DNA from: a virus
Lineage: Duplodnaviria > Caudoviricetes
Length of the DNA: 55,205 nucleotides
IMG/VR virus record: IMGVR_UViG_3300003660_000066
Span: 1-55,205 of that record
Strand: one strand, 5' to 3'
Of this stretch, positions 5 through 53,545 are shown piece by piece (the stretch's first letter is position 1; the number at the start of each line of letters is the position of its first letter). The notes below the pieces were generated by a model, which saw nothing but the letters and a program-made list of their open reading frames with translations, searched no databases and was not told where the DNA came from. The translations under genes and the position numbers were made by a program.

Positions 5-334
5 CTATGAGCAGACCCAGACCCAGCCGCCGGGAATCGGTCGCCAGCAGCGGCCTACGCCGTAGGGATACCAACGGCCGCCCCAGTAGCGCCCGCGTCC
101 CCAGCCGCGATGGCCCCAACCTCTGCGACCATGGTCCCACCCGCCGCCACGCCGCCAGCCGCCGCCTCGACCGTCCCATCCGCCTTTGCGGCCGCCATCC
201 CAGCCGCCGTCCCGATGACTGCCTCGTCCATGCCCGCCGCCTCCGCCGTGTCCGCCGCCGCGCCCTGCGAGAACAGTCGACGGAAGCGCCAAGGCGCCGA
301 GCAATGCGAGCAAAATAGTCAGTCTGCGAAGCAT
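5..334 (-). CDS. Host Gly/Trp/Arg-rich exported protein
   Basis: Start moved to MLRRLTILLALLGALALPSTVLA (signal peptide-like). GGW/GRG repeats; C-terminal CWRPIPGGWVWVC. Lies outside the att repeat. Confidence 0.7.
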   Translation of the reverse strand: MLRRLTILLALLGALALPSTVLAGRGGGHGGGGGHGRGSHRDGGWDGGRKGGWDGRGGGWRRGGGWDHGRRGWGHRGWGRGRYWGGRWYPYGVGRCWRPIPGGWVWVCS

Positions 335-521
335 TAGCTTCCTCCTATTGAATCGTAAGCAGAGCGCTATGGCGGCTGCTGGATGGCTGTCGGGTGGAAG
401 CAAGGTAACTACGTCACTTGTCTTGGACGGCAATTGACGAACGTCCGTTTTCTTTCAAACGGATCTGCGCGCGGCTCTGACGATTTTTCGGGCCGTCGAA
501 GCTCGAGATGTGCAGCTTGGG

Positions 522-570
522 TGGTGGGCCGGGCAGGACTCGAACCTGCAACCAGACCGTTATGAGCGGC
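522..570 (-). repeat. Left att core: duplicated 3' 49 bp of the tRNA
   Basis: tggtgggccgggcaggactcgaacctgcaaccagaccgttatgagcggc is identical to 52591-52639; flanking bases differ. Confidence 0.97.
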
Positions 571-675
571 TAGCAGCAAAATAAAATGCACGAAAAACAA
601 GGATTCTGCCTATAGAAACTGTCCGTTTGTTCCGGTTGGGTTCTATAGTTTCTGGCGCAATCCGGAGAATTGCAC

Positions 676-708
676 AAAAAAACCCCGCCGGCCGGAGCCT
701 ACGGGGTT
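676..708 (-). terminator. Rho-independent terminator of the late/lysis operon
   Basis: Minus strand AACCCCG-TAGGCTCCGGCCGG-CGGGGTT followed by a T run, ~70 nt after the last late gene. Confidence 0.75.
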
Positions 709-779
709 CATGAGCCGCTCTCGTCAGAAGAACGGCGGAGGCGGACCGCGCGTGCGGCCGCTAACATCTCTTGACGCGC

Positions 780-1211
780 TCACTCCGGCGGCAGCGTCTT
801 GAAGCCTGGAAGACGGATCGCCGACAGCACGAATTTCACCCGCTTGGTGAACCAGGCGCAGGCGTCGAGCCCGACGACGCCGAGCGTGAAGCCGGTCAGG
901 CCTGGAATCGCGTCGGCGGGGATCAGCGCCGGGTCCGCCCCGAGCTGCTGATAGACCCAGACGACGCCGACCTGCATCAGCGGCGCGAAGATCGGCGTCG
1001 CGACCCAGGAGAAGGCCCCGCCGACGAGCGCGGCGACGATGCGATCTGGCCAGGTTCCGGCGATCAGCAGCGCCGAGACGCTCGCGCCGGCGACGACGGC
1101 GATCGGCGCCGCCACATGATAGGATTCATTCGGCATAAAGCGCTGCGCCCCCTTCAGCGTCGAGTGGGCGGCCGATACGCGGGCGCGCCAGTCTTGATTC
1201 ACGGTCATCAC
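780..1211 (-). CDS. Multi-pass membrane protein, holin/antiholin candidate
   Basis: Several hydrophobic segments and a basic C-terminus; ATGA overlap with the upstream lipoprotein; last gene of the lysis cassette. Confidence 0.6.
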   Translation of the reverse strand: MMTVNQDWRARVSAAHSTLKGAQRFMPNESYHVAAPIAVVAGASVSALLIAGTWPDRIVAALVGGAFSWVATPIFAPLMQVGVVWVYQQLGADPALIPADAIPGLTGFTLGVVGLDACAWFTKRVKFVLSAIRLPGFKTLPPE

Positions 1212-1549
1212 GACAACGCCTTACGTTTTGCCGGCTTGCCCCGCCTGCAGATCAAGGTCTCCGCGTCGAAGCGATCGAGGCGGTCGACGATCGCCACGGC
1301 GTCAGTATCCTCGGCAAGCCGCAGCACGAAAGCGGCGGCTTGCTCGCGCTCCGCATTCGTCAGGGGCGCCGGACAGGCGCGCGCGATCTTCTCCAGGATG
1401 ATCGCCTTGCGCTGCGCCGGCGGCGCGTCATGGATCTGGCCCAGCACCGCCTTCGGATCGAATCCGCTCTCGCAAGCGCTCAGCGATATCGCGAGCGCTC
1501 CCGCCGCGAGCAACCTGACTGCGTTCATCGGCAATCTCGGCAATGACAT
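1208..1549 (-). CDS. Lipoprotein, putative o-spanin (Rz1-like)
   Basis: MSLPRLPMNAVRLLAAGALAISLSAC lipobox (start may be 1528); overlaps the 3' end of the i-spanin candidate in another frame. Confidence 0.65.
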   Translation of the reverse strand: MSLPRLPMNAVRLLAAGALAISLSACESGFDPKAVLGQIHDAPPAQRKAIILEKIARACPAPLTNAEREQAAAFVLRLAEDTDAVAIVDRLDRFDAETLICRRGKPAKRKALS

Positions 1550-1718
1550 CGGTCGTCTCCGCTTCGGCTTCGGATGCGGCGCTCTTGCGAATGGCGTCGT
1601 CGCGCTCCCCGTCCTGCCGTTTCGTCCGAAGCGCCGAAAGCAGCGGAGAGAGGAGCGCGGTGAGAAGCGGCGCCACAAACTGGGCGACGCTCCTCAACCA
1701 CGCCGGGAGGGCGATCAT
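1428..1718 (-). CDS. Putative i-spanin (Rz-like)
   Basis: TGATG-coupled start MIALPAWLRSV; N-terminal hydrophobic helix followed by a charged helical domain. Confidence 0.6.
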   Translation of the reverse strand: MIALPAWLRSVAQFVAPLLTALLSPLLSALRTKRQDGERDDAIRKSAASEAEAETTDVIAEIADERSQVARGGSARDIAERLRERIRSEGGAGPDP

Positions 1719-2107
1719 CAGACCTTGCGTTCGTTCTTGGCGTTGCCGAAGTTCGCCGCGAGAATGTTGAGCACGGTGCGCAGCATGTCCCACGCGCCGC
1801 CGGTCTGGCCCTGCGGCAGGATCGCCATGGCGAGGCCGATGAGCCAGGCAATCGCCGCCGGCGTGCTGACATAGGCCCAGACATTGGCGAACCAGCCGGA
1901 GTCGGCGAGGCCGGCCGGCGCTTCATTCGCCAGCGCGGCGAAAGGCGAGACAATCGAGAGCGTGAATAGGAGCGCAAGATAGCCGGCCATGCGGCGCAGC
2001 CGCGGCGCGGGGCGGGCGCGCAGCATGGGGATGTAGCGCGTGAGCTCGGCGACGACGAAAAGCGCCAGCGCCAGAACGAGCAGCGCCGTAACGAGAGACA
2101 TAAGCAT
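1718..2107 (-). CDS. Membrane protein, holin candidate
   Basis: AAGGA RBS; about three hydrophobic segments; C-terminal LNILAANFGNAKN; upstream of the spanins. Confidence 0.6.
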   Translation of the reverse strand: MLMSLVTALLVLALALFVVAELTRYIPMLRARPAPRLRRMAGYLALLFTLSIVSPFAALANEAPAGLADSGWFANVWAYVSTPAAIAWLIGLAMAILPQGQTGGAWDMLRTVLNILAANFGNAKNERKV

Positions 2108-2197
2108 CAGGGAATATCCTTCTTTGGTTATGCGTCCGCCGGCGCTCATCGAACGCCGGCGCGCAAGGGTTTGACGTTTCGAGCTTGGCGCGGGCGC

Positions 2198-2491
2198 TTA
2201 GACCGCCGCGCCGTCGACCGACGCTTCGCCGGACGTCTCGGCTTCAGCCGCAGCCGCAGCCTCAGCCGGCTTGTCGAGATCCATGCTGTCGGCATAGGCG
2301 TTCATCTCGCCGAGCAGCGCCTGCAGGCCTTCGCTGACCGGCGGGGCGACGGTCGTCGCGGGCGCGGCGGCCGCGGCCGCGAGGTCTTCCTGGAACTTGC
2401 GCTCGAGCGCTTCGGTCTTCACGCGGATGAATTCGGCGGTCTCGCTCTTGATGCGCACGAATGCGGCGCGCAGATCGTCGTCGATGGCCAT
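2198..2491 (-). CDS. Acidic Ala-rich hypothetical protein
   Basis: AGGAG RBS before MAIDDDLRAAF; contains the EMNAYAD motif. Confidence 0.7.
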   Translation of the reverse strand: MAIDDDLRAAFVRIKSETAEFIRVKTEALERKFQEDLAAAAAAPATTVAPPVSEGLQALLGEMNAYADSMDLDKPAEAAAAAEAETSGEASVDGAAV

Positions 2492-2585
2492 TGTCTTGCT
2501 CCTGGGGGATTTGCCGCAGAGGCCGCCGCGGCGCGGATCGTCTCCGGGCCCATCGCCGGAGAGAATTTCGGTTGGACGCCGCCGG

Positions 2586-2765
2586 TCAGCGCCGCTCATT
2601 GACCATACGTCCGACGAGAGCGGCGGGAACCGCATTGCCGCGACGCCAGTCCATCGATGCGCCGACAAGCGATTGCTGGCCCATGCCAGCCGGGCCGCAG
2701 GCGGAAAGCGTCGCTGCGCCGAAGATGAGTGCTAGAATGGTCGCCGCGAAGATCAGCGCGCGCAT
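2586..2765 (-). CDS. 59-aa lipoprotein-like microprotein
   Basis: MRALIFAATILALIFGAATLSAC lipobox; TGATG coupling and GGAG RBS. Confidence 0.65.
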   Translation of the reverse strand: MRALIFAATILALIFGAATLSACGPAGMGQQSLVGASMDWRRGNAVPAALVGRMVNERR

Positions 2766-2842
2766 CACAGCGTCTCCATAAACAGCACGGCGAGCGCGCA
2801 TAGGAACAGCAGGCCGATAAATCCGAGCGCTATTTCCAGCAT
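2765..2842 (-). CDS. 25-aa single-TM microprotein
   Basis: MLEIALGFIGLLFLCALAVLFMETL; TGATG overlaps at both ends. Confidence 0.65.
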   Translation of the reverse strand: MLEIALGFIGLLFLCALAVLFMETL

Positions 2843-2925
2843 CAGCGGCGACACACGGCGATGACGGCGACGGCGAATAAAACGAGTGCAGAAAGCGCCA
2901 CGCAGACGAATTCGATAATGATCAT
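2842..2925 (-). CDS. 27-aa single-TM microprotein
   Basis: MIIIEFVCVALSALVLFAVAVIAVCRR; AGGAGG RBS overlapping the previous TAG. Confidence 0.7.
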   Translation of the reverse strand: MIIIEFVCVALSALVLFAVAVIAVCRR

Positions 2926-2934
2926 TTGCGCCTC

Positions 2935-3036
2935 CTAAAGCCGCAGAATCCAGACGAGGCCACAGACGACCATGACGCCGACGAGCGCCGTGCAGAGCGC
3001 GGCGACTCTGCGGGCGATCGTCTCAGGCGCGGGCAT
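2935..3036 (-). CDS. 33-aa single-TM microprotein
   Basis: MPAPETIARRVAALCTALVGVMVVCGLVWILRL; starts inside the preceding micro-ORF. Confidence 0.55.
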   Translation of the reverse strand: MPAPETIARRVAALCTALVGVMVVCGLVWILRL

Positions 3037-3136
3037 TGCGAAGCTTCTCGATTGCGACGCTGACAAGCGCGAGGATAACGCCGAGCGGCGCGCCGAGCGC
3101 GACGGCGCTGGCGTCATAGAGCGCTCGGCGGATCAT
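3023..3136 (-). CDS. 37-aa single-TM microprotein
   Basis: MIRRALYDASAVALGAPLGVILALVSVAIEKLRNARA; ATGA overlap with the endolysin stop. Confidence 0.6.
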   Translation of the reverse strand: MIRRALYDASAVALGAPLGVILALVSVAIEKLRNARA

Positions 3137-3648
3137 CGGAGCCGCGCAAACTGGAAATGCATGCCGTCGCAGGCGCGCTCGTCGAGACTGTCGCCGTCGC
3201 CGTCCCAGTCGCCGCCCCAGACGCCGCCGAGCGCGAGGAAAGGCTTCACCACCTGCTCGCGCAGCGTCGCGAAATGCGGCGTGCGGTCATATTGGCCGTT
3301 GCGCGGGGCATCGAAATCCACGGCGCACCCGTAGGAGTGCATAGAGAGCGCCGAGCCGCCGCGCATGACGCGGTAGTTGTAGGCGCCGGCATAATTATCC
3401 ATGCCCCAGTCTTTGATGACCTTGCGGTCCCTGCCGGCGTTCGCCCACACCGCTTCGAGCCATGTCATGAACGGGTCGTAGCACTTCTTGTGAACGCGCA
3501 TCTTCGCCGGCTTGCCGACAAAGAAGATCGGGAACGGCGGGACGAGCAGCGTGAGGCTCTTGACCTCCCAAGATGCGTTCGCCTGGCCGTTGCGCCCGCG
3601 AGGGTCGCCGTAAAAAGTCGCGCAGTCGCGTTGAAGCGGCCAATTCAT
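3133..3648 (-). CDS. Endolysin, peptidase M15 family
   Basis: YNYR...SMHSYGCAVDFD (SxHxxGxAxD) and DGMHFQ zinc-ligand motifs; AAGGAG RBS. Confidence 0.88.
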   Translation of the reverse strand: MNWPLQRDCATFYGDPRGRNGQANASWEVKSLTLLVPPFPIFFVGKPAKMRVHKKCYDPFMTWLEAVWANAGRDRKVIKDWGMDNYAGAYNYRVMRGGSALSMHSYGCAVDFDAPRNGQYDRTPHFATLREQVVKPFLALGGVWGGDWDGDGDSLDERACDGMHFQFARLR

Positions 3649-3696
3649 TGGCGCATCTCCTTTGTGGTTCGAAGGCGTTTGGTTGGGGGAGTCAGC

Positions 3697-3786
3697 TCAG
3701 CGCAACAGCGCGTCGAGCAGCGTCGCCGCGAAGAACATCGCCGCCATAAGTCCGAGCGTCATCAAGGCAAGGCGTATCCGAACCAT
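3697..3786 (-). CDS. 29-aa single-TM microprotein
   Basis: MVRIRLALMTLGLMAAMFFAATLLDALLR; GAGGGG RBS. Confidence 0.6.
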   Translation of the reverse strand: MVRIRLALMTLGLMAAMFFAATLLDALLR

Positions 3787-3800
3787 CCCCTCGATGAGGC

Positions 3801-3953
3801 TCAGCGGTTTGCCTTGACCCAGTCGGCGGCAACCCCAAGACCGACGCCGAGCAGAGCAGTCACGACGACCAGCATCAGCCCCATGTCGGTTCCGGGGCCC
3901 AGGAGGGCCAGAGCAGCAAACGCAAGGCAGCCCATCGCCACGTTCATCGCCAT
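3801..3953 (-). CDS. 50-aa two-TM microprotein
   Basis: MAMNVAMGCLAFAALALLGPGTDMGLMLVVVTALLGVGLGVAADWVKANR; GGAGGGTAAGGA upstream. Confidence 0.7.
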   Translation of the reverse strand: MAMNVAMGCLAFAALALLGPGTDMGLMLVVVTALLGVGLGVAADWVKANR

Positions 3954-3958
3954 TTTCC

Positions 3959-4066
3959 TTACCCTCCGAAGATGACAAGAGCGGTTTTGACGTAGAAGAA
4001 CAGCACGCCGATGCTCACGGCGCCGAAAACGAGCTTGAAAGCCAGATCAAGTTCATCTGGCGTCAT
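3959..4066 (-). CDS. 35-aa single-TM microprotein
   Basis: MTPDELDLAFKLVFGAVSIGVLFFYVKTALVIFGG; ATGA overlap. Confidence 0.65.
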   Translation of the reverse strand: MTPDELDLAFKLVFGAVSIGVLFFYVKTALVIFGG

Positions 4067-4197
4067 TCTTCCGACCAATGTTTCCCATAACGCCCGGAGT
4101 CGCCATCGCGATTGACCATGAACCGCCAGCGAACGAAGCGCACAAGCATGCGCAGCGACGCGCACAGACCGATCGCGGCGAGCGCATAGATGATCAT
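4063..4197 (-). CDS. 44-aa N-terminal-TM microprotein
   Basis: MIIYALAAIGLCASLRMLVRFVRWRFMVNRDGDSGRYGKHWSEE; ATGA overlaps at both ends; GAGG RBS. Confidence 0.65.
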   Translation of the reverse strand: MIIYALAAIGLCASLRMLVRFVRWRFMVNRDGDSGRYGKHWSEE

Positions 4198-4283
4198 GGG
4201 AGCCGCCTCAGTTCGATCAGGAAACGCGCCAGAGTCATGACGACGGCGACCCAGAACAGCGCCCGGAACAGAGGCGCGCGCAT
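4194..4283 (-). CDS. 29-aa single-TM microprotein
   Basis: MRAPLFRALFWVAVVMTLARFLIELRRLP; weak RBS, stop coupled to the next ATG. Confidence 0.55.
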   Translation of the reverse strand: MRAPLFRALFWVAVVMTLARFLIELRRLP

Positions 4284-4305
4284 GTCACAGGCTCGCGCAG
4301 AAACG

Positions 4306-4410
4306 TCAGGACCGATTGACGAACAACCAGATGAAGAGATCAGGCGCGAGCCAAGATGCGAGGGCGAGCGCCGCGATGGCGCCGGCGACGATGATGAGAG
4401 CCGCTTTCAT
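4306..4410 (-). CDS. 34-aa single-TM microprotein
   Basis: MKAALIIVAGAIAALALASWLAPDLFIWLFVNRS; GAGAGGA RBS. Confidence 0.7.
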   Translation of the reverse strand: MKAALIIVAGAIAALALASWLAPDLFIWLFVNRS

Positions 4411-4458
4411 TTGGAAGTCCTCTCAGTTGAATCGCGTCACGCGTGCTGCGGGGCATTG

Positions 4459-4677
4459 TCATTTCGCAGCCTGCTTTGGTTTAATCTGGGTATTGATTTT
4501 CTCGACGATCGCCGCAGCCTCTATTCGACTGCGCTCAGCCTGCAGTAGCAGTTGCAACTCTCCGAGCGTCAATGTCACAGGCTGGTTGGGATCTGGAGGG
4601 AGCGGCTTCTGCTCTTCCGCCAATGCTGGCATGCATGACGCTATTATAGCGAGCGCGATTATTGCTGGACGCATCAT
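4459..4677 (-). CDS. Small exported protein
   Basis: Signal peptide ending ALA, then a short helical domain; AGGAG RBS. Confidence 0.7.
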   Translation of the reverse strand: MMRPAIIALAIIASCMPALAEEQKPLPPDPNQPVTLTLGELQLLLQAERSRIEAAAIVEKINTQIKPKQAAK

Positions 4678-4682
4678 TGCTC

Positions 4683-6434
4683 CTACGGTTCAATCGCGAT
4701 TTGCTGTGCCGCCCCTGTCGCGAACAATATTGAGCAGCGCGTTTTTCCGGCCCCGTTGTCGTCGCAGTAGAGTCGCGCGCCATTGGCCGCTGGGGCGGCA
4801 GGGGGCGTCATTTCAGCAACATCAAAATAGTTGCCCAAAAAAATGTTACGCAGCGGAAGGGCCGCGCTCCCGACGTCATATGACGATGCTGCGCCAGGCA
4901 GCATGTGACCAAGATTGGTAATCTCCCATCTCTTCGTGCCATTTGAGACGGCATTGGTCGAAGCCGTGTAAAGCGATATGCCAGTCGAAGCGGTGAGGGA
5001 CGCCGTCCCCCCGCCGATAAAAATATCGTTGTTTGTGCTTGAATTTGATCCAAATATTAGCGCGGTTGGATTGGTCGCGTTGGTATAGTGAGCGACTGAA
5101 ATGATACCCGTCTTTGTCGTAGCATCAGATAGTGTGTTGCTTAGTTTCACATATGTCGACAGCACATTGAGAGTATTTAATGATGCGAATAACGACGCGT
5201 CTCGCGCGTCGGCGCTGCTCAGCCAACGAATTTCCATTGGCCGCGCCAACTCAACCGCCACGCCACCGCCGCTCTCTCCTTGAGAGGTGTCGAGAGAATA
5301 GGGATTCGCATAAACTATTATTCCTTTTTTAAATTTAGTTCCGGTTGCCGCAGATGCGCCGATATATAGAGCCGCGGTAATGTTGTGCGTCGCTATGGAG
5401 GAGAAAACGCCTGGCGACAGTCCAAGAGAATAGGCCGTGTTTCCGACGACGCCGCCATATGGCGTTGTGTTGGCCGTCTCCACCAATGATCCGACGTCGA
5501 GTTGATTTAGCGTGATGCCGGTTGCTACGGCCTGAACGCCTTGTCCGCAAATCGGACAAGCAATGGCGCCGCCTAGGGCGTCGTCGTTAACGGCGAGGCC
5601 GGTTACGCCCTGAGACCCTCCGGATGGGCTACCGGGAACCCACGTCCTGAAATCACTGGTGCGAGAAGCGCCGGTAACCGCAAGGCCGCCGATCGCGGAA
5701 GTCGCAGATAATTGGGATATAGCATTCCAGTTCGGAATATATGTATCTGTCCAAATAGCGGAGGTGTCAGGGCGATCGCCGCTTGTCAGCGCGGACGCGC
5801 CGACGAGAATTCTGTTAAATCGAGAAACCTTGCCACTGGCGGAATTTCCAAAAAAATTCGTTTGATGAAACTTTTCTGCGGAACCTATGACTGTTGTTGC
5901 GTCCGTCCACGGCTGATTGGTGGGTAGGCGGGCGATATCAAGCGTGCCTGAAAGATCGGCGGCCGGAATCGTGCTCGACGCGGTTGGATCACCGCCGACG
6001 CCATTGGCCTTGACATAGCCGGTCAGCGGCAAGCGCGGAACGACGGTGAATATCTTCTGCGCCGCAAAGGTGCTTGCGGTGTCATTGCGCGTGACGATGC
6101 CAGGAAGGCGCGCGGCGTTGAGCGTGCCACTCGTCAGAAGGCTAGCGTCGGTTGTGCCGGCAGCGACCTCACAGGTCGCTGGGCTCGCGCCATTCGCCTT
6201 CCAGAAGCAATTGGAGTTCGTCGACAGGATCGGGATGAAACTGTCGGCGACGTCCTGGAATGAATTATTGACGTCAGGCGCGGTGACGAGCTTCTTGCCG
6301 TTCGCCGGGAATTTCGACGCGCTCTCCGCCTTGATCGTCCCCGGCGTCTTCTGCGCGGCGAGGACCGGCGCGGAGAGAGCAACCGCAAGAATAGCGAGCG
6401 CGACGGAGGCGGAACGGACAATCTGTTTCAGCAT
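4683..6434 (-). CDS. Tail-fibre/adhesin-like protein with an N-terminal signal-peptide-like sequence
   Basis: G/S/T-rich; DASLLTSGTLNAARLP and PGAASSYDVGSAALPLRNIF fibre-type motifs; lower-GC central part. Confidence 0.6.
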   Translation of the reverse strand: MLKQIVRSASVALAILAVALSAPVLAAQKTPGTIKAESASKFPANGKKLVTAPDVNNSFQDVADSFIPILSTNSNCFWKANGASPATCEVAAGTTDASLLTSGTLNAARLPGIVTRNDTASTFAAQKIFTVVPRLPLTGYVKANGVGGDPTASSTIPAADLSGTLDIARLPTNQPWTDATTVIGSAEKFHQTNFFGNSASGKVSRFNRILVGASALTSGDRPDTSAIWTDTYIPNWNAISQLSATSAIGGLAVTGASRTSDFRTWVPGSPSGGSQGVTGLAVNDDALGGAIACPICGQGVQAVATGITLNQLDVGSLVETANTTPYGGVVGNTAYSLGLSPGVFSSIATHNITAALYIGASAATGTKFKKGIIVYANPYSLDTSQGESGGGVAVELARPMEIRWLSSADARDASLFASLNTLNVLSTYVKLSNTLSDATTKTGIISVAHYTNATNPTALIFGSNSSTNNDIFIGGGTASLTASTGISLYTASTNAVSNGTKRWEITNLGHMLPGAASSYDVGSAALPLRNIFLGNYFDVAEMTPPAAPAANGARLYCDDNGAGKTRCSILFATGAAQQIAIEP

Positions 6435-6459
6435 ATGGATTTCCTTGCGGAGCGTTTTT

Positions 6460-6491
6460 CGTGGATGGCCGGGACAAGCCCGGCCATGACG
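6460..6491. repeat. Alphaproteobacterial REP/RPE-like palindrome
   Basis: CGTGGATGGCCGGGACAAGCCCGGCCATGACG; related copies at 37132-37163 and 37186-37217. Confidence 0.8.
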
Positions 6492-6516
6492 TAGGGAAGA
6501 GTTGGGCGAGACCGCC

Positions 6517-7953
6517 CTACATCATGAAGGAGAAGCGCAGGCCGGTGGCGCCGCCATACCAGGTGGTCGTGGTGACGCCGGCGCCGTTCTCGAGCAGCTG
6601 CACGAAGTGCTTGCCGAACACATTGCCGGCAAGCCGCGCGGTCATTCCGATCTTGAAGCTGGCCCCGCCGCAGGTGACAAGGCCGGTCTGCCCGCTCGGG
6701 CTGCTGGTGGAATCGAGGCCGACGCCGGACTCGCCGTCGCCGGACGCGCCGTTCTGGCCAAGCGCCGTCGACCCTTCGGCATTAAAGAAATCTTCCGAAG
6801 CGCCGGAAACGAAGGTCGCGCGATTCGCGTTGGAATTGTTGGCAGCGCGCCAGGCGTTCGTGCTGTAGTCCCATGACGCCGTGGAATCGACGGTGAGCGA
6901 GTCGATCCGCACGCGATTGTAGGCGTTCCAGACGCCGAGGATCGCGGCGCCGCCGCCCGCAGCCGAGGAGCCAAGCACCCAGTTGAATTTGCTCGCGCCG
7001 TCCGACATCACCGTTCCGACCCATGTGCCGCGCCCGGCGGCGGGCCCGTTGGTGATCGCCGAATTGTTCGTCCAGATCCCGCCGTTGCGGGTCAGCGTGT
7101 AGCCGCGCGTCGTGTCATTCGTCCATGCGGGCCCGCGCGAGACGCGCAGCGTGCCGGCATCGTCCCAGACGAAGACGTCATAGACCTTGTCGGCCGCGAC
7201 GGCCGCCGGGCTCTTGGTCGCGTCGGTCGCCGCCTGCGACAACTCGGCGAAGGCCTTGTAGACGATCTTGACGCTATCCCAGAGCGGGATGCGGTCGCCG
7301 AGATAGGGCGTGTAGTAGAGCGTTCCGGCGGCGGAGACTGTCGCGTTCATCGCCGGAACGCCGGTCGCCAGCGTCAGCCGTCCCTGCGGCAGGCAGAGCG
7401 GCAGTTCCGATTGCGTCAGATCGTTGTAGGAGCCGGAGACGGCGACCGCATGCAGGCCCAGCGCGGTGCGCTGCTCCTCATCGTCTTCCGCCGTCAGCAG
7501 CGTGCGGCCGGCGGCGGTCGAATCAGAAATATCAGCGGCGAGCAGAACGTCGTTGCGGATCTTCCGCCACGCGCCGTCGAGAAAGACGGCGAGATCATTG
7601 ACGCGCCAGCCCGACTTGCCGTCGAGCGTCGTCGCGCCCGCCGTGCCGACGCGGAACACATAGCCGTTTGTGCCGACGCCGGAGGCGAGCGTTGGACTGT
7701 TGCTCGAGGCGTTCCAGGTCCCGGCCGGAAACAGCGCCCCCTCGGCCGAGACGACGCCGGGCACGAGGATCTCCCAGTCGCCGTCGACGCCTGGCGTCGC
7801 ATCGGTCTGGACATTGGCGACCCACAACCCGCCGCCGAAGGTGACGACCGCGCCCTGCGGATAAGCGCCGGCGACCCATGCGCCATAGGGCCTCAGACCC
7901 CATGCGTCCTTATTCGACGGGTCGTCGATCGCGATAACGATGTTGCCTGGCAT
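6517..7953 (-). CDS. Tail-fibre-like protein (paralogue 1)
   Basis: N-terminal W-x4-Y-x2-G-x-VV CBM5/12-like motif; GTWNASSNSPTL module; QGRLTLATGVP C-terminal domain; tail-distal position. Confidence 0.65.
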   Translation of the reverse strand: MPGNIVIAIDDPSNKDAWGLRPYGAWVAGAYPQGAVVTFGGGLWVANVQTDATPGVDGDWEILVPGVVSAEGALFPAGTWNASSNSPTLASGVGTNGYVFRVGTAGATTLDGKSGWRVNDLAVFLDGAWRKIRNDVLLAADISDSTAAGRTLLTAEDDEEQRTALGLHAVAVSGSYNDLTQSELPLCLPQGRLTLATGVPAMNATVSAAGTLYYTPYLGDRIPLWDSVKIVYKAFAELSQAATDATKSPAAVAADKVYDVFVWDDAGTLRVSRGPAWTNDTTRGYTLTRNGGIWTNNSAITNGPAAGRGTWVGTVMSDGASKFNWVLGSSAAGGGAAILGVWNAYNRVRIDSLTVDSTASWDYSTNAWRAANNSNANRATFVSGASEDFFNAEGSTALGQNGASGDGESGVGLDSTSSPSGQTGLVTCGGASFKIGMTARLAGNVFGKHFVQLLENGAGVTTTTWYGGATGLRFSFMM

Positions 7954-42383: not shown

Positions 42384-42524
42384 CTAAGGTCCGAGCGCGA
42401 GGCTGAGCGCCTCATCGATCGCGAGCTTAATGAAATAGAAGAACAGGCCAACGGCGAGTCCGACGCCGCCGATGACGAGAAGCGAGGCTGTCGTGCCGAG
42501 ACGGATGTCGTCAGGATCTTTCAT
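42384..42524 (-). CDS. 46-aa single-TM microprotein
   Basis: MKDPDDIRLGTTASLLVIGGVGLAVGLFFYFIKLAIDEALSLALGP; ATGA overlap. Confidence 0.6.
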   Translation of the reverse strand: MKDPDDIRLGTTASLLVIGGVGLAVGLFFYFIKLAIDEALSLALGP

Positions 42525-42667
42525 TTGCGCGCGCTCCGCCGCTCAATCGCATCCAGCGCGAGGATGGCGAGAAAACAGGCGTTCGCCACGTCATATCTGT
42601 CGACGAACGCGCTGAGCGCCGACAGGCCCAGGAGAAGCACGACGAGTATGGAGCCGATCGCGCGCAT
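42521..42667 (-). CDS. 48-aa two-TM microprotein
   Basis: MRAIGSILVVLLLGLSALSAFVDRYDVANACFLAILALDAIERRSARK; TGATG overlap. Confidence 0.6.
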   Translation of the reverse strand: MRAIGSILVVLLLGLSALSAFVDRYDVANACFLAILALDAIERRSARK

Positions 42668-42756
42668 CACCACGCCCCCATGATTTTCGCATAACCCGAC
42701 AAAGCGATGCCGGAGATGAACGCGCATGCGAGGTAGAAATCGGCGAGATGTGTCAT
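42667..42756 (-). CDS. 29-aa single-TM microprotein
   Basis: MTHLADFYLACAFISGIALSGYAKIMGAW; ATGA overlap. Confidence 0.55.
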   Translation of the reverse strand: MTHLADFYLACAFISGIALSGYAKIMGAW

Positions 42757-42971
42757 GACGCGCCCCCATCCTCGCGAATGACGATCCGCTTCGAGCGCCC
42801 GTCGCGCACCATGCCGATGGCTTCGATCAGCATCCCGGCGTCGGTCGCCGGCAGGCCGATCGTCTCGATCCGCGCCTTGTCGTCGCGCGAGCGGAAGGAA
42901 ATCTCGATCTCTCCTTCGTCGCCCATGGCGACAGTCAAGACCTCGGCCCGATGCAGGATGTGCGTCGTCAC
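42753..42971 (-). CDS. Hypothetical protein
   Basis: GTG start overlapping the cro stop; GGAGG RBS. Confidence 0.6.
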   Translation of the reverse strand: MTTHILHRAEVLTVAMGDEGEIEISFRSRDDKARIETIGLPATDAGMLIEAIGMVRDGRSKRIVIREDGGAS

Positions 42972-44592: not shown

Positions 44593-44628
44593 TCCTCCAT
44601 AGGCCATTCGCCTATGGAGACCGCGACC

Positions 44629-44841
44629 ATGTCATTCCTTCAATCGATCCTGACCGAGAAGCAGCTCGCCAATTTCATTTTCTTCGGCCTTTGGCTCGGG
44701 CCGCTGACGATCGGCGGAATTATCGCGCAGATCTATCTGCAGATCGTGGAGGAGAAGGCGCGCCTGGCGCAGCTGCGCGGCCTGCGCGCGCTGGCGAGAT
44801 CGCGCCCCGCGCCGCTCCGCCGCGACGTCGGCTTCCTCTAA
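44629..44841 (+). CDS. Small single-TM protein
   Basis: FIFFGLWLGPLTIGGIIAQI; GGAG RBS. Confidence 0.65.
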   Translation: MSFLQSILTEKQLANFIFFGLWLGPLTIGGIIAQIYLQIVEEKARLAQLRGLRALARSRPAPLRRDVGFL

Positions 44842-45904: not shown

Positions 45905-46114
45905 ATGACCAGACAGGATCTGCTTGCCTTCGCGAAAGGCTTCAAAAACGGCGTGGGCGCCGGAGCCATTTTGATGCTCTGCGCCGCAGGCCTCGCCGGC
46001 TGGATCATGAACATCGCCGCGATCCAGCGCGACGGCGGCTTCAACGGCGCGACCGCGCTCCGCCTGATCGGCATCCCCTTCTGGCCGCTCGGCGCAATCC
46101 TCGGATGGCTGTGA
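45905..46114 (+). CDS. Two-TM small protein
   Basis: GWIMNI...LRLIGIPFWPLGAILGW. Confidence 0.7.
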   Translation: MTRQDLLAFAKGFKNGVGAGAILMLCAAGLAGWIMNIAAIQRDGGFNGATALRLIGIPFWPLGAILGWL

Positions 46115-51167: not shown

Positions 51168-51607
51168 CCAATAGCCAGATTTGCGCGGCCACCACCTTCA
51201 CGCAGGGTGACTTATCCCCCGATTCCCCGTTATCCCTGGAGGAGGCCGCAGCCGTTCTGTTGCGCGGCCTGGTCAAGGCGTCCACTCTCCGCGCCGCCGC
51301 CGCAAAGGGGGATCTAGCCATTGCGCGGCTCGGGCGCAGGATCGTCGTCACGCCGGCGGCGATCGACGTATGGAGAGAATTATGCCTAGACCGAGAAAGG
51401 GCCCGCGCCTCTATCTGCGCCCGCCAAAGCGCAAAGCCGGCGCCATCATCTCCCCCGCGCGATGGGTCATCCGCGACGGCGGAAGTGATCTTAGCACGGG
51501 ACTCGGCCCTGAAGATCATCGAGAAGCTGAAAAGCGACTTGCAGAATACCTCGCGGAAAAGCACCGGCCGCCGCGGCGGGAGCGTGCATTATCTGAAATC
51601 CCGGTAG
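51164..51607 (+). CDS. Excisionase-like HTH protein
   Basis: PLSLEEAA...STLR...RLGRRIVVTPAAI; overlaps the integrase start. Confidence 0.7.
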   Translation: MTNSQICAATTFTQGDLSPDSPLSLEEAAAVLLRGLVKASTLRAAAAKGDLAIARLGRRIVVTPAAIDVWRELCLDRERARASICARQSAKPAPSSPPRDGSSATAEVILARDSALKIIEKLKSDLQNTSRKSTGRRGGSVHYLKSR

Positions 51608-52518
51608 GCGACGTCATCGGACTCTACGTCAAGGACGTCGTGCCCGGGCAGGCGAGGCCGGAGAAGGCGATCGAGCGCGCGGAGCGGCTGCTCGCGTTCT
51701 TTGGCGAGAAACGCCTCGACGAGATCTCAGGCGAGCTCTGCCGCGCCTATGCCGAGCAGCGGGAAGGGAAGGGCAGATCCACGAAAGGGAAGGGCGGCGG
51801 CGCGAGGCGCGACCTTCAGGATTTGGCCGCAGCGATCAATCATCACCATCGGGAGGGGCTTCATCGCGCCTCTGTGCGCGTCGCGCTGCCGCCCCAGGGC
51901 AAGTCCCGCAAACGCTGGCTGACCCGCTCCGAGGCCGCGCGGCTGCTCTGGATCTGTTGGCGCACGCGTGAGGTCCAGGAGGCCGCGGCGACCGACAAGC
52001 GGCCCCTACGGCATCTCTGCCGCTTCCTGCTGCTCGGCCTCTACACCGGATCGAGGCCGGGGGCGATTCTCAACGCCTCCTGGTTCGAGGGCCCCAGCCT
52101 TTCCTATGTCGACCTCGCGCACAACGTTTTTCACCGTCACGCCTCCGGAGAGATCGAGACAGCCAAGAGCCAGCCGACGGTCAAATTATCCCCGCGACTG
52201 GCGTCGCATCTTCGCCGCTGGAGCAGGATCGACGCTGGCGCGAGCCCGAGGCCGATCTTCGTCGTCACCTACGCCGGGCAGCAAATCCAGAGCGTGAAGA
52301 CAGCGCTTAATCGCGCCTGCTCACTCGCCAAGCTGGAGGGTGCGGTCACCGCCTACACGCTGCGCCACAGCTGCGCGTCGTGGCTGGTCTCCAAGGGGGT
52401 ATCGACGCGCAAAGTCGCGGAATTCATCGGCACAAGCGAACAGATGGTCATCAAGCACTATGGCCATCTGGACCCGGAATATCAGGAGGAGGCCGTCGCC
52501 GCGCTGTCGAGAAAATGA
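51382..52518 (+). CDS. int: Tyrosine integrase
   Basis: LYTGSR, YTLRHSCASW, HYGH catalytic motifs; adjacent to the tRNA att. Confidence 0.95.
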   Translation: MPRPRKGPRLYLRPPKRKAGAIISPARWVIRDGGSDLSTGLGPEDHREAEKRLAEYLAEKHRPPRRERALSEIPVGDVIGLYVKDVVPGQARPEKAIERAERLLAFFGEKRLDEISGELCRAYAEQREGKGRSTKGKGGGARRDLQDLAAAINHHHREGLHRASVRVALPPQGKSRKRWLTRSEAARLLWICWRTREVQEAAATDKRPLRHLCRFLLLGLYTGSRPGAILNASWFEGPSLSYVDLAHNVFHRHASGEIETAKSQPTVKLSPRLASHLRRWSRIDAGASPRPIFVVTYAGQQIQSVKTALNRACSLAKLEGAVTAYTLRHSCASWLVSKGVSTRKVAEFIGTSEQMVIKHYGHLDPEYQEEAVAALSRK

Positions 52519-52590: not shown

Positions 52591-52666
52591 TGGTGGGCCG
52601 GGCAGGACTCGAACCTGCAACCAGACCGTTATGAGCGGCCGGCTCTAACCATTGAGCTACCGGCCC
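52591..52666 (-). tRNA. tRNA with CAU anticodon, probably tRNA-Ile2 (lysidine); contains the right att core 52591-52639
   Basis: 76-nt cloverleaf GGGCCGGTAGCTCAATGGTTAGAGCCGGCCGCTCATAACGGTCTGGTTGCAGGTTCGAGTCCTGCCCGGCCCACCA; lacks initiator features. Confidence 0.92.
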
Positions 52667-53440: not shown

Positions 53441-53545
53441 TTGTCATTCCCGGAAGGCCGAAGGCCTAACCGGGAATCCAGTTCAACGTCTTCATGATGG
53501 CTTGTTCTGGATTCCCGATCGCGCTGCGCGCGTCGGGAATGACAA
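53441..53545. repeat. Host REP-like inverted doublet between convergent genes
   Basis: TTGTCATTCCCG...CGGGAATCCAG ... CTGGATTCCCG...CGGGAATGACAA. Confidence 0.8.

What the first reader, a model, noticed from the sequence alone, without database searches (positions are those of the whole stretch)
2586..4410. Array of eleven hydrophobic microproteins wrapped around the endolysin
Seen: the ~1.3 kb flanking the M15 endolysin is tiled almost without gaps by same-strand ORFs of 25-59 aa. Upstream: 4306-4410, 4194-4283, 4063-4197, 3959-4066, 3801-3953, 3697-3786. Downstream: 3023-3136, 2935-3036, 2842-2925, 2765-2842, 2586-2765. Each is essentially a TM helix with charged ends, all differ in sequence, and most are joined by ATGA/TGATG overlaps or have clear RBSs. 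Chance would not tile and couple hydrophobic ORFs like this, and all fall below the 60-aa cut-off, so standard annotation would miss them. Known: single-TM phage peptides act as pinholin/antiholin modulators, membrane disruptors and exclusion factors, but typically one or two per cassette. Inference: an undescribed multi-peptide lysis or membrane-remodelling module, for example for a host with extensive internal membranes, or an expandable peptide repertoire against membrane-bound defences.
Basis: partly seen in the sequence, partly recalled or inferred. Interest (0 to 1): 0.85.

Follow-up and report, generated by a model that had tools for sequence, protein, structure and literature searches.

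The report
Eleven membrane micro-genes around a phage endolysin
A prophage of a methane-oxidising bacterium packs eleven tiny, unrelated membrane-peptide genes tightly around its cell-wall-cutting enzyme, far more than its relatives carry, and they look like real genes whose roles in host lysis or membrane defence are still unknown.

Summary
All eleven minus-strand ORFs (25-59 aa) exist at the stated coordinates. They cover about 92% of the 1.3 kb flanking a Peptidase_M15_4 endolysin.

They look like real genes:
- All 11 have a hydrophobic core that 0 of 87 out-of-frame control ORFs reach.
- Codon bias is positive in all 11. Six starts overlap the preceding stop codon.
- Two belong to conserved small-protein families: u4 (44 aa) and the lipoprotein d5 (59 aa).
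- A relative in two metagenomes keeps the d1-d5 block at about 83-85% DNA identity, with no frame-breaking gaps visible.

The peptides are unrelated to one another and match no Pfam or PHROG family. By one uniform criterion the window has 12 such ORFs, against at most 3 in 35 loci with related endolysins.

The element is a 52-kb temperate myovirus integrated at tRNA-Met in a Methylocystis-like host. A canonical lysis set lies just downstream: a holin-like protein (d7), an i-spanin and an o-spanin. The micro-genes are therefore extras.

Best reading: single-pass peptides acquired one by one in a mosaic region and expressed late. Some probably tune lysis and some are probably exclusion-type cargo. 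Their function is inferred, not shown. This is a new variant of a known kind (multi-holin-like lysis cassettes), of moderate interest.

The parts
4459..4677 (-). u7: 72-aa exported protein or possible lipoprotein, directly after the tail-fibre gene. It is not one of the eleven.
   Evidence: Hydrophobic N-terminus with a lipobox-like I-A-S-C, and an AGGAG ribosome-binding site. The codon score is weak, -0.19 bits per codon. No Pfam or PHROG hit.
4306..4410 (-). u6: 34-aa single-pass peptide.
   Evidence: Hydropathy (KD17) 2.49 and codon score 0.40, above all 87 controls. SD pairing -5.8. No hit in phages, Pfam or PHROGs.
4194..4283 (-). u5: 29-aa basic hydrophobic peptide. One of the weaker calls.
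   Evidence: KD17 1.99 and codon score 0.20. Weak SD and a 22-nt gap. Marginal similarity (50% over 28 aa, E 0.013) to a 31-aa ORF just upstream of the endolysin in L062.
4063..4197 (-). u4: 44-aa peptide with an N-terminal TM helix, a basic juxtamembrane stretch and a conserved hydrophilic tail. It belongs to a conserved small-protein family.
   Evidence: Six homologues of 42-48 aa at 49-63% identity, E from 1e-10 to 8e-4, among 1.84 billion representatives. Gly32, Ser34, Gly35 and Arg36 are invariant. The ATGA start overlaps the u5 stop, and SD pairing is -7.6.
3959..4066 (-). u3: 35-aa peptide with an acidic N-terminus and one TM helix.
   Evidence: KD17 2.22 and codon score 0.47. ATGA overlap with the u4 stop. 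No phage hit.
3801..3953 (-). u2: 50-aa hairpin of two hydrophobic segments, pinholin-like in layout only.
   Evidence: Two uncharged runs, 5-19 and 24-43. Strongest SD in the array, -10.0. Codon score 0.39. The protein collection holds only the identical sequence, on 4 contigs, with no diverged homologue.
3697..3786 (-). u1: 29-aa single-pass peptide. The weakest call.
   Evidence: KD17 2.10. The codon score is only 0.04, and its own frame is not the best of six. A metagenome contig matches 3697-3764 at 60 of 68 bases, then diverges upstream.
3133..3648 (-). Endolysin: a soluble Peptidase_M15_4 enzyme with no signal or SAR segment.
   Evidence: PF13539 at 8e-10 and phrog_17001 at 4e-21. Of the 29 visible substitutions in metagenome relatives, 23 are synonymous.
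3023..3136 (-). d1: 37-aa single-pass peptide translationally coupled to the endolysin.
   Evidence: ATGA overlap with the endolysin stop. KD17 2.40 and codon score 0.42. A metagenome contig covers 3002-3137 with 20 substitutions and 0 gaps. Relatives also carry a small hydrophobic ORF at this position, with unrelated sequence.
2935..3036 (-). d2: 33-aa single-pass peptide.
   Evidence: KD17 2.54 and codon score 0.29. It overlaps d1 by 14 nt. The 60-aa long form found nothing in the protein collection. No phage hit.
2842..2925 (-). d3: 27-aa single-pass peptide.
   Evidence: KD17 3.02. TAGGAGG site with SD pairing -10.2. Codon score 0.16. Covered by the metagenome contig 2659-2958, which has 50 substitutions and 2 gaps in 300 nt.
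2765..2842 (-). d4: 25-aa single-pass peptide, acidic at both ends.
   Evidence: KD17 2.86 and codon score 0.44. TGATG overlap with d3. Covered by the same metagenome contig.
2586..2765 (-). d5: 59-aa lipoprotein precursor, giving a mature peptide of about 36 aa. It belongs to a conserved small family.
   Evidence: Four homologues at 68-80% identity, with an invariant lipobox Cys23 and a conserved mature part. The six visible substitutions are 3 synonymous plus I>M, I>L and F>L.
2198..2491 (-). d6: 97-aa soluble, acidic, Ala-rich protein of unknown role.
   Evidence: AGGAG site and codon score 0.61. About 90% identical in metagenome contigs, with indels in the Ala-rich tail. No family hit.
1718..2149 (-). 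d7: multi-TM protein, the holin candidate. It probably starts at Met15, giving 129 aa.
   Evidence: Homologues lie downstream of the endolysin in L013 (E 4e-12) and L042 (E 7e-11). The Atlas holds it from residue 15. Its nearest feature clusters include a 'putative Holin' cluster at 0.83, which is a lead only.
1428..1718 (-). i-spanin-like protein: 96 aa, an N-terminal TM helix followed by a charged helical domain.
   Evidence: Its ATG overlaps the d7 stop. Assigned by architecture only; no family hit. Analogous genes lie in L013 and L042.
1208..1549 (-). o-spanin-like lipoprotein. It starts inside the i-spanin gene in another frame.
   Evidence: L-S-A-C lipobox and the overlapped arrangement. 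43% identity to an ORF downstream of the endolysin in L061, E 6e-9.
780..1208 (-). 142-aa multi-TM protein, the last gene of the operon.
   Evidence: Its ATG overlaps the o-spanin stop. Weak match to phrog_13918, 3e-4.
680..700 (-). Terminator-like hairpin with a T-run, closing the late operon.
   Evidence: Eight-pair stem followed by a T-run. It is a consensus match only.
522..570 (.). attL core: a 49-bp exact repeat of the 3' part of tRNA-Met at 52591-52639.
   Evidence: blastn gives 49 of 49. The tRNA-Met is at 52591-52666.

Best explanation
The eleven ORFs are real, co-transcribed genes for unrelated inner-membrane microproteins: nine single-pass peptides, one two-segment hairpin (u2) and one small lipoprotein (d5). 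They accumulated one by one, through mosaic recombination, on both flanks of a soluble M15 endolysin. This is the att-proximal end of the late operon of a 52-kb temperate myovirus integrated at tRNA-Met in a Methylocystis-like host.

They are translated late, together with the endolysin. Several depend on stop-start coupling.

The core lysis pathway is canonical and complete without them. The holin-like d7 releases the cytoplasmic endolysin, and the i-spanin/o-spanin pair then breaches the outer membrane.

The microproteins are accessories. Most likely several tune when the holin fires, either by mixing with holin TM helices (antiholin or co-holin behaviour) or by leaking proton-motive force (a pinholin-like role for u2). 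Others, with d5 the prime suspect, are exclusion-type envelope cargo.

Shown here: gene structure, coding signatures, conservation of u4 and d5, synteny, and the outlier count.

Inferred: membrane insertion, expression timing, and every functional role.
For: Coding signatures:
- 11 of 11 exceed the hydropathy of all 87 control ORFs, and 11 of 11 have positive codon scores. Eight of 11 score above all controls, and 10 of 11 are best in their own frame.
- Twelve of the window's 21 hydrophobic short ORFs sit here.
- SD pairing is stronger than at random ATGs (p = 0.004), and six starts overlap the preceding stop.

Conservation:
- The d5 family has an invariant lipobox cysteine.
- The u4 family comprises six stand-alone homologues of 42-48 aa.
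- Contigs in two metagenomes are collinear from about 1416 to 3764. They cover d1 with 0 gaps and d5N-d4-d3 with 2 gaps in 300 nt. Two single-base indels in run X2 lie 5 nt apart and compensate each other.
- The visible d5 substitutions are synonymous or hydrophobic-for-hydrophobic.

One operon: no terminator-like site with a strong T-run lies inside the array, and a hairpin sits at 700-680 after the last gene.

Canonical set present: d7 has homologues in L013 and L042, and the o-spanin has one in L061.

Shared syntax, expanded here: relatives carry 0-3 small hydrophobic ORFs around the endolysin, often one coupled to its stop.

Mosaic accretion: homology with the 79%-identical endolysin locus ends at the gene borders, window 3651 to 3142. 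The peptides show no paralogy and the DNA no repeats.

[quoted passage not shown] P1 uses several holin-like proteins co-operatively (PMC9025707, abstract read).
Against: - There is no evidence of translation or of any phenotype.
- Nine of the 11 have no detectable homologue. u2 found only identical copies. The long form of d2 found nothing. tblastn gave no match in 50,697 phage records for u4, d5, d1, u6, u3 or d2. None of the 11 scored E < 0.01 in 37 related loci.
- u1 and u5 rest on weak signals.
- None matches a holin, antiholin, spanin or releasin family.
- I saw only 6 of the substitutions inside the array; 250 rows of that table were not shown. Selection on d1-d4 is therefore not measured.
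- The codon model was trained on soluble proteins. The hydropathy control is a comparison of composition, not proof of membrane insertion.
Confidence: 0.55

Rival explanations
1. The ORFs are real genes that have nothing to do with lysis. They form a cluster of independent 'moron'-type membrane peptides parked next to the att site. These could be superinfection-exclusion factors, blockers of membrane-bound defence systems, or modulators of host envelope proteins. On this reading they merely share the late transcript with the endolysin.
For: - The array lies at the extreme att-proximal end of the prophage, which is the usual place for accessory cargo.
- The peptides are unrelated to each other, and the region is mosaic.
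- d5 is a conserved small lipoprotein. This resembles the exclusion or serum-resistance lipoproteins found beside lysis genes in lambdoid phages (Cor, Bor, Llp; recalled, not tested).
- The canonical lysis set is complete without them.
Against: - Tight stop-start coupling to the endolysin (d1) and placement inside the late operon predict expression only late in lytic growth. That is a poor time for exclusion by a lysogen.
- No sigma-70-like promoter was found on this strand in 400-6600. That scan is crude.
- No PADLOC or other defence library was searched.
Confidence: 0.3
2. Most of the ORFs are not genes. They would be chance ORFs, or the decayed remains of larger membrane-protein genes, in a fast-evolving spacer. 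Only u4 and d5 would be real.
For: - Nine of the 11 have no homologue.
- u1 scores no better than an antisense frame, and the u5 start has no good ribosome-binding site.
- High-GC DNA gives many long spurious ORFs.
Against: - 0 of 87 control ORFs reach the hydropathy that all 11 reach, and 8 of 11 beat every control in codon score.
- The low GC at codon position 2 runs against the 64% GC background.
- Coding density of about 92%, with six overlapping stop-start junctions, is not what decay produces.
- A relative at 83-85% DNA identity keeps d1 and d3-d5 with no gaps, or only two, across these blocks.
- The frames differ between neighbours, and each ORF has its own start, so they are not pieces of one broken gene.
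Confidence: 0.08
3. The array is a dedicated multi-peptide system adapted to a methanotroph. It would permeabilise or dismantle the stacked intracytoplasmic membranes so that endolysin, holin and virions can reach the envelope.
For: - The host flank is 85% identical and collinear with Methylocystis silviterrae.
- The array is an outlier in size.
Against: - The M. silviterrae prophage, with a 79%-identical endolysin, has only two such ORFs.
- The d5 family profile was not found in 301 genomes sampled from that host's family, nor the u4 family profile in 401 sampled from its order. The u4 search did find u4 in the window as a positive control.
- Nothing links any of the peptides to internal membranes.
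Confidence: 0.05

Closest known systems
Lysis cassettes of Gordonia and Mycobacterium phages with several 'holin-like' TM protein genes (PMC9671378, abstract and section 31 read; PMC13056207, abstract start in a search listing only)
   Same: - Several unrelated small TM-protein genes lie directly beside the endolysin, and none is duplicated.
- Composition differs even between close phages.
- The authors infer that genes are gained and lost one at a time.
   Different: - Those cassettes hold at most four such genes, with 1-4 TM helices each, in Gram-positive hosts. The paper states that this organisation had not been described for Gram-negative hosts.
- Here there are eleven, in a Gram-negative alphaproteobacterial host. 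They are 25-59 aa, lie on both sides of the endolysin, and come in addition to a larger holin-like protein and spanins.
Phage P1 multi-holin system: LydA, LydB, LydC, LydD (PMC9025707, abstract read)
   Same: A temperate myovirus of a Gram-negative host with more holin-like proteins than lysis strictly needs. They were shown to co-operate and to matter differently in different hosts and growth conditions.
   Different: - P1 has a SAR endolysin, and its holin-like genes are spread over three operons.
- There is no sequence similarity, and the proteins are larger.
- Function is demonstrated there and not here.
Phage Mu lysis region: gp19, gp20 and the gp25 releasin, DUF2730 (PMC9239132, abstract and passages read)
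   Same: - Small membrane proteins sit around the endolysin, and some proved dispensable for lysis.
- gp25 is an N-out, C-in single-pass protein with basic residues at the membrane junction. By charge distribution, u4 has a similar layout.
   Different: - gp25 is 99 aa and acts on a SAR endolysin. The endolysin here has no SAR segment.
- No DUF2730 match was found for any peptide at E <= 1.
Canonical Gram-negative cassette: holin, endolysin, i-spanin and o-spanin as in lambda S-R-Rz-Rz1, plus pinholins such as phage 21 S68 (recalled knowledge)
   Same: - A soluble endolysin, a multi-TM holin candidate (d7) and an overlapping i-spanin/o-spanin pair are all present.
- u2 has the two-segment hairpin layout of a pinholin.
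   Different: - One or two small membrane proteins are the norm, and here there are eleven extra.
- u2 is 50 aa and matches no holin family.
Related endolysin loci: the Methylocystis silviterrae prophage (L013) and metagenome contig L042
   Same: - The endolysins are 79-80% identical.
- The gene order is the same: small hydrophobic ORF(s), endolysin, a coupled small ORF, a d7 homologue, an i-spanin and an o-spanin.
   Different: - They carry only 2-3 small hydrophobic ORFs.
- Their small ORFs share no detectable sequence with the eleven.

Membership tests
Peptidase_M15_4 phage endolysin (the enzyme in the middle) | Match to PF13539 above the curated cut-off | tested here: met
   39.6 bits against a cut-off of 25, E 8e-10. 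phrog_17001 'endolysin' at E 4e-21.
Holin or pinholin (any of the eleven) | A small protein with at least one TM segment, encoded next to the endolysin in the late operon | tested here: met
   Hydropathy and position. This feature is necessary but not specific.
Holin or pinholin (any of the eleven) | Sequence membership in a described holin family | tested here: not met
   No Pfam or PHROG hit reaches significance for any of the eleven. The best are E 0.004-0.01, to unrelated families and below their cut-offs.
Holin or pinholin (any of the eleven) | Timed, energy-poison-triggerable lethal permeabilisation of the inner membrane that releases or activates the endolysin | not testable with these tools
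   This needs expression and lysis-curve experiments.
Two-component spanin (d5 as an o-spanin) | A lipobox lipoprotein encoded within, or overlapping, the gene of a TM-anchored i-spanin partner | tested here: not met
   d5 has the lipobox. It is preceded by the 25-aa d4 and followed by a 94-nt gap. The true overlapping pair lies at 1208-1718, and its o-spanin has a homologue in L061.
Mu gp25 releasin, DUF2730 (u4) | Match to PF10805, and a partner SAR endolysin | tested here: not met
   u4 has no Pfam hit at E <= 1. The endolysin N-terminus has no hydrophobic segment.
DUF1378 small lysis-region proteins (u4; an Atlas lead) | Match to PF07125 | tested here: not met
   Only a feature score of 0.79 at rank 16, below the level the tool treats as meaningful. 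No Pfam hit.
Tandem type I toxin peptide arrays (Ldr, Ibs or Hok type) | Paralogous repeated peptide genes, each with its own antisense RNA | tested here: not met
   No paralogy (best pairwise E 0.024). No direct DNA repeats beyond chance-level matches of at most 42 nt. Antisense RNAs were not tested.
Conserved small-protein family of u4 (unnamed) | A stand-alone protein of 42-48 aa with an N-terminal TM helix and a conserved Gly-x-Ser-Gly-Arg tail | tested here: met
   Six homologues, E from 1e-10 to 8e-4, with four invariant tail residues.
Conserved small lipoprotein family of d5 (unnamed) | A precursor of about 59-70 aa with an invariant lipobox cysteine and a conserved mature segment | tested here: met
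   Four homologues at 68-80% identity, with 35 invariant columns including Cys23.

The most novel reading that the evidence does not exclude
The eleven peptides form a purpose-built, expandable membrane-active toolkit. A methanotroph phage would use it to break down or permeabilise the host's stacked intracytoplasmic membranes, and to time that step relative to holin firing. That would be a fourth barrier-specific step of phage lysis, beyond inner membrane, cell wall and outer membrane.
Probability: 0.06. Interest if true: 0.85.

Novelty: new variant of a known kind. Interest (0 to 1): 0.5.

Why it matters
If the peptides are made, this is the densest cluster of distinct membrane microprotein genes around an endolysin that I could find. 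Four literature searches turned up nothing larger than four holin-like genes per cassette. The paper reporting that figure says the arrangement was undescribed for Gram-negative hosts (PMC9671378).

The locus offers:
- a compact natural set of eleven unrelated 25-59-aa membrane peptides to test for lysis timing, membrane depolarisation and exclusion;
- two new conserved microprotein families (u4 and d5);
- a concrete example of how small genes pile up at a recombination-prone module border.

It is also one of the few phage lysis regions described for Methylocystis-type methanotrophs, which are used in methane bioconversion.

It does not, on present evidence, reveal a new mechanism.

Tried and rejected
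Searches for relatives that gave nothing useful
- blastn of 2100-4750 against 50,697 phage records: no match.
- IMG/VR scans with d7, d5, the tail fibre, u2, the d5 alignment and two u4 alignments: no relatives.
- Metagenome scan with d7: none.
- Metagenome scan with the endolysin: 21 loci. None shares a microprotein. L042 shares d7.
- DNA search of 301 genomes of the host's family: only the endolysin matched, and the rest were GC-rich hits under about 120 nt that look like chance.
- u4 profile in 401 genomes of the order: none. The positive control on the window worked.
- d5 profile in 301 genomes of the family: none, and no positive control was run.
- tblastn against phages for u4, d5, d1, u6, u3 and d2 (E <= 0.1) and for d7 (E <= 0.01): no match.

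Expression
- No RNA holder was listed for the stretch. This says nothing about expression.

Coverage
- Parts of the upstream block (3818-3936 and 4413-4750) had no laid contig at 80% likeness. This is not evidence of absence.

Atlas
- d7's nearest feature clusters scored 0.83-0.87, one of them named 'putative Holin'. u4's scored 0.79-0.83, including DUF1378. All are below the tool's level of meaning, so they are leads only.

Ideas rejected
- One broken multi-TM gene: neighbouring frames differ, each ORF has its own start, and the d5 and u4 homologues stand alone.
- A paralogous toxin array: no paralogy was found.
- d5 as the o-spanin: a proper overlapping pair lies downstream.

Not done
- No structure or complex prediction was run, because I claim no binding.
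- No PADLOC search was run.
- Supplementary files of the papers were not opened and may list other phages with larger cassettes.

Full report
WHAT THE WINDOW IS

The window is a virus record of 55,205 bp at about 64% GC. It holds a temperate myovirus. PHROG matches identify tail sheath, tape measure, baseplate hub and wedge, portal, large terminase, a replication initiator and an integrase.

A 49-bp exact repeat (522-570 and 52591-52639) is the 3' part of the tRNA-Met gene at 52591-52666. This bounds a prophage of about 52.1 kb.

The DNA to the right of the prophage carries host genes, a class II aldolase and an IF-2B-family protein. It is collinear with, and 85% identical to, Methylocystis silviterrae (that genome is named by the record title of L013). 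The host is therefore a Methylocystis-like methanotroph of another species.

THE OBSERVATION

All eleven ORFs exist on the minus strand with ATG starts at the stated coordinates. I label them u6 to u1 upstream of the endolysin and d1 to d5 downstream.

The enzyme between them is a Peptidase_M15_4 endolysin: PF13539 at 39.6 bits against a cut-off of 25, and phrog_17001 at E 4e-21. It has no N-terminal hydrophobic segment, so it should need a holin.

The eleven ORFs fill about 92% of the flanking 1.3 kb. Six of their starts overlap the end of the preceding ORF (ATGA, TGATG, or 14 nt). The other gaps are 5-48 nt.

IS IT MORE THAN CHANCE?

I trained a codon log-odds model on 27 long genes of the window. 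As controls I used the 87 ATG ORFs of 25-60 aa that lie out of frame inside those genes.
- The 17-residue hydropathy maximum is 1.96-3.02 in all eleven. It never exceeds 1.89 in the 87 controls.
- Codon scores are positive in all eleven (0.04-0.47 bits per codon; the endolysin scores 0.52).
- Eight of the eleven exceed every control. d3, d5 and u1 are exceeded by 1%, 7% and 9% of controls.
- The ORF's own frame is the best of six for ten of the eleven (not u1).

All eleven show GC1 > GC2 < GC3, as the window's real genes do.

In the whole window only 21 short ORFs reach this hydropathy in any frame. Twelve of them lie in 2586-4677 on this strand.

Shine-Dalgarno pairing averages -5.3 kcal/mol, against -2.8 for 800 random ATGs (p = 0.004). 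It is similar to the training genes at -4.6. The starts that lack a good site (d1, d2, d4) are the ones that overlap the upstream stop. u5 has neither a good site nor an overlap.

The weakest members are u1 and u5.

CONSERVATION

Two members have diverged homologues.
- d5 (59 aa) has four homologues of 59-70 aa at 68-80% identity. The lipobox cysteine is invariant and the mature segment is conserved. It is a small lipoprotein, not a bare TM helix.
- u4 (44 aa) has six stand-alone homologues of 42-48 aa (49-63% identity, E 1e-10 to 8e-4) among 1.84 billion representatives. Conservation is concentrated in a hydrophilic tail after the TM helix. A seventh hit, a 2071-aa protein matched over 21 residues, I take as spurious.

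u2 found only identical copies on four contigs. The 60-aa long form of d2 found nothing. d1 was too short for that tool.

Contigs from a wastewater run and a sludge run are collinear with the window from about 1416 to 3764:
- about 90% identical over d7 and d6;
- 50 substitutions and 2 gaps in 300 nt over d5N, d4, d3 and d2C;
- 20 substitutions and 0 gaps in 136 nt over d1;
- 26 in 522 nt over the endolysin;
- 8 in 68 nt over the second half of u1, beyond which that contig no longer matches.

Two single-base indels in run X2, at 2755 and 2760, compensate each other.

Only 40 of about 290 substitution rows were printed:
- endolysin: 23 of the 29 visible substitutions are synonymous;
- d5: 3 of 6 are synonymous, and the others are I>M, I>L and F>L.

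This supports coding in the downstream block but does not measure selection on d1-d4. I could not obtain the contig sequences.

WHAT THE NEIGHBOURS SAY

The run of membrane genes continues downstream.
- d6 is a soluble acidic 97-aa protein.
- d7 (1718-2149) is multi-TM. It has homologues just downstream of the endolysin in the M. silviterrae prophage L013 (E 4e-12) and in metagenome contig L042 (E 7e-11). It is the holin candidate.
- Its stop overlaps the start of a 96-aa protein with an N-terminal TM helix and a charged tail.
- Inside that gene, in another frame, starts a lipoprotein (L-S-A-C lipobox) that is 43% identical to an ORF downstream of the endolysin in L061. This is the overlapped i-spanin/o-spanin arrangement.
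- A 142-aa multi-TM protein follows, again with an overlapping start.
- A terminator-like hairpin lies at 700-680.

The canonical lysis functions are therefore present without the eleven.

COMPARISON WITH RELATIVES

I collected 37 loci with related endolysins (44-84% identity) from IMG/VR, GTDB genomes and JGI metagenomes.

None of the eleven peptides has a tblastn hit below E 0.01 in them. The nearest is u5 against a 31-aa ORF just upstream of the endolysin in L062 (E 0.013).

With the closest locus (79% protein identity, 83% DNA identity), DNA similarity ends at the endolysin borders.

I then applied one criterion to all loci: same strand, within 1.5 kb, at most 75 aa, hydropathy at least 1.9. 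The window has 7 upstream and 5 downstream. The 35 relatives examined have 0-2 upstream and 0-3 downstream, never more than 3 in total. L003, a duplicate, and L016, a fragment, were left out. Some loci are truncated, and a few are the same contig fetched twice.

The syntax is nevertheless shared. L042 reads: fibre, 82-aa TM ORF, endolysin, 48-aa ORF with an ATGA overlap, 44-aa TM ORF, two larger proteins, d7 homologue, i-spanin, o-spanin. Several other relatives have a small hydrophobic ORF or lipoprotein coupled to the endolysin stop.

The window is thus an expanded version of a common layout.

The eleven are not paralogues (best pairwise E 0.024). The DNA holds no meaningful repeats. None matches Pfam or PHROGs.

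HOW IT MOST LIKELY WORKS

Shown: gene structure, coding signatures, two conserved families, synteny and the outlier count.

Inferred:
- The late transcript runs from the tail genes to the hairpin at 700-680.
- Ribosomes translate u6 to u1, then the endolysin, and re-initiate on d1 to d5.
- The peptides insert in the inner membrane, in mixed orientations judged by charge. d5 is lipidated.
- The endolysin waits in the cytoplasm until d7 forms holes. The spanins then open the outer membrane.

The extras most plausibly alter when d7 fires, by joining its TM helices or by leaking membrane potential. u2 has the two-segment hairpin layout of a pinholin. Some, d5 above all, may be exclusion-type cargo instead.

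I put about 0.85 on most of the eleven being real genes and about 0.4 on a lysis-accessory role for several. That gives 0.55 for the combined statement.

Rivals:
- unrelated membrane cargo, 0.3;
- mostly not genes, 0.08;
- a system aimed at the methanotroph's internal membranes, 0.05. This is weakened because the M. silviterrae prophage has only two such ORFs.

WHAT IS KNOWN

- Gordonia phage cassettes hold up to four unrelated holin-like genes that come and go singly. The authors state that this organisation had not been described for Gram-negative hosts (PMC9671378, abstract and section 31 read).
- P1 uses LydA, LydC and LydD together, with host-dependent weight (PMC9025707, abstract read).
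- Mu has small membrane proteins near its endolysin. Some are dispensable, and gp25 is a single-pass 'releasin' (PMC9239132, abstract and passages read).

Four full-text searches listed nothing with a larger array and nothing on Methylocystis phage lysis. That is a limited search, and supplements were closed.

VERDICT

This is a new variant of a known kind: a multi-holin-like lysis cassette, unusual in count, in peptide size, in lying on both sides of the endolysin, and in having a Gram-negative host. Interest is 0.5, because the genes are probably real and the number is striking, but no new mechanism is shown.

Noticed in passing
window 522-570 and 52591-52639: A 49-bp perfect direct repeat, equal to the 3' part of tRNA-Met (52591-52666). 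These are the attL and attR cores of a prophage of about 52.1 kb. The integrase gene at 51370-52518 lies next to attR.
   Followed up: yes
window about 53442-53544: An intergenic element of about 100 nt, between the host aldolase and IF-2B-family genes. It has more than 40 copies (74-100% identity) scattered over the Methylocystis silviterrae genome, so it looks like a REP- or MITE-like repeat.
   Followed up: no
window 5-334 (-): A host-side ORF with a signal-like N-terminus followed by a very Gly-, Trp-, Arg- and His-rich low-complexity region. It has a strong AGGAGG site and no Pfam match.
   Followed up: partly
window 42384-42524 and 42521-42769 (-); 44614-44841 and 45905-46114 (+): Four more short hydrophobic ORFs with gene-like GC patterns, in the early or lysogeny region of the prophage. 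They may be further membrane microproteins.
   Followed up: no
window 4001-6000: The tail-fibre-like gene (4683-6434) and u7 lie in a stretch of 54-58% GC, against about 64% elsewhere. This suggests a recently acquired host-range module next to the array. The fibre has no close relative in IMG/VR.
   Followed up: partly
L013 4684-5102: In the Methylocystis silviterrae prophage, the d7 homologue appears split between two reading frames (4684-4992 and 4938-5102). This could be a frameshift, an assembly error or a different start.
   Followed up: no
window 2243-2257 (d6 C-terminal region): The Ala-rich tail of d6 carries several short indels in the metagenome relatives. It looks like a length-variable low-complexity segment.
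   Followed up: no
L062 743-838: A 31-aa basic hydrophobic ORF about 130 nt upstream of an endolysin homologue. It is 50% identical to u5 over 28 residues (E 0.013 in a small database), so it is a possible but unproven homologue in the same position.
   Followed up: partly
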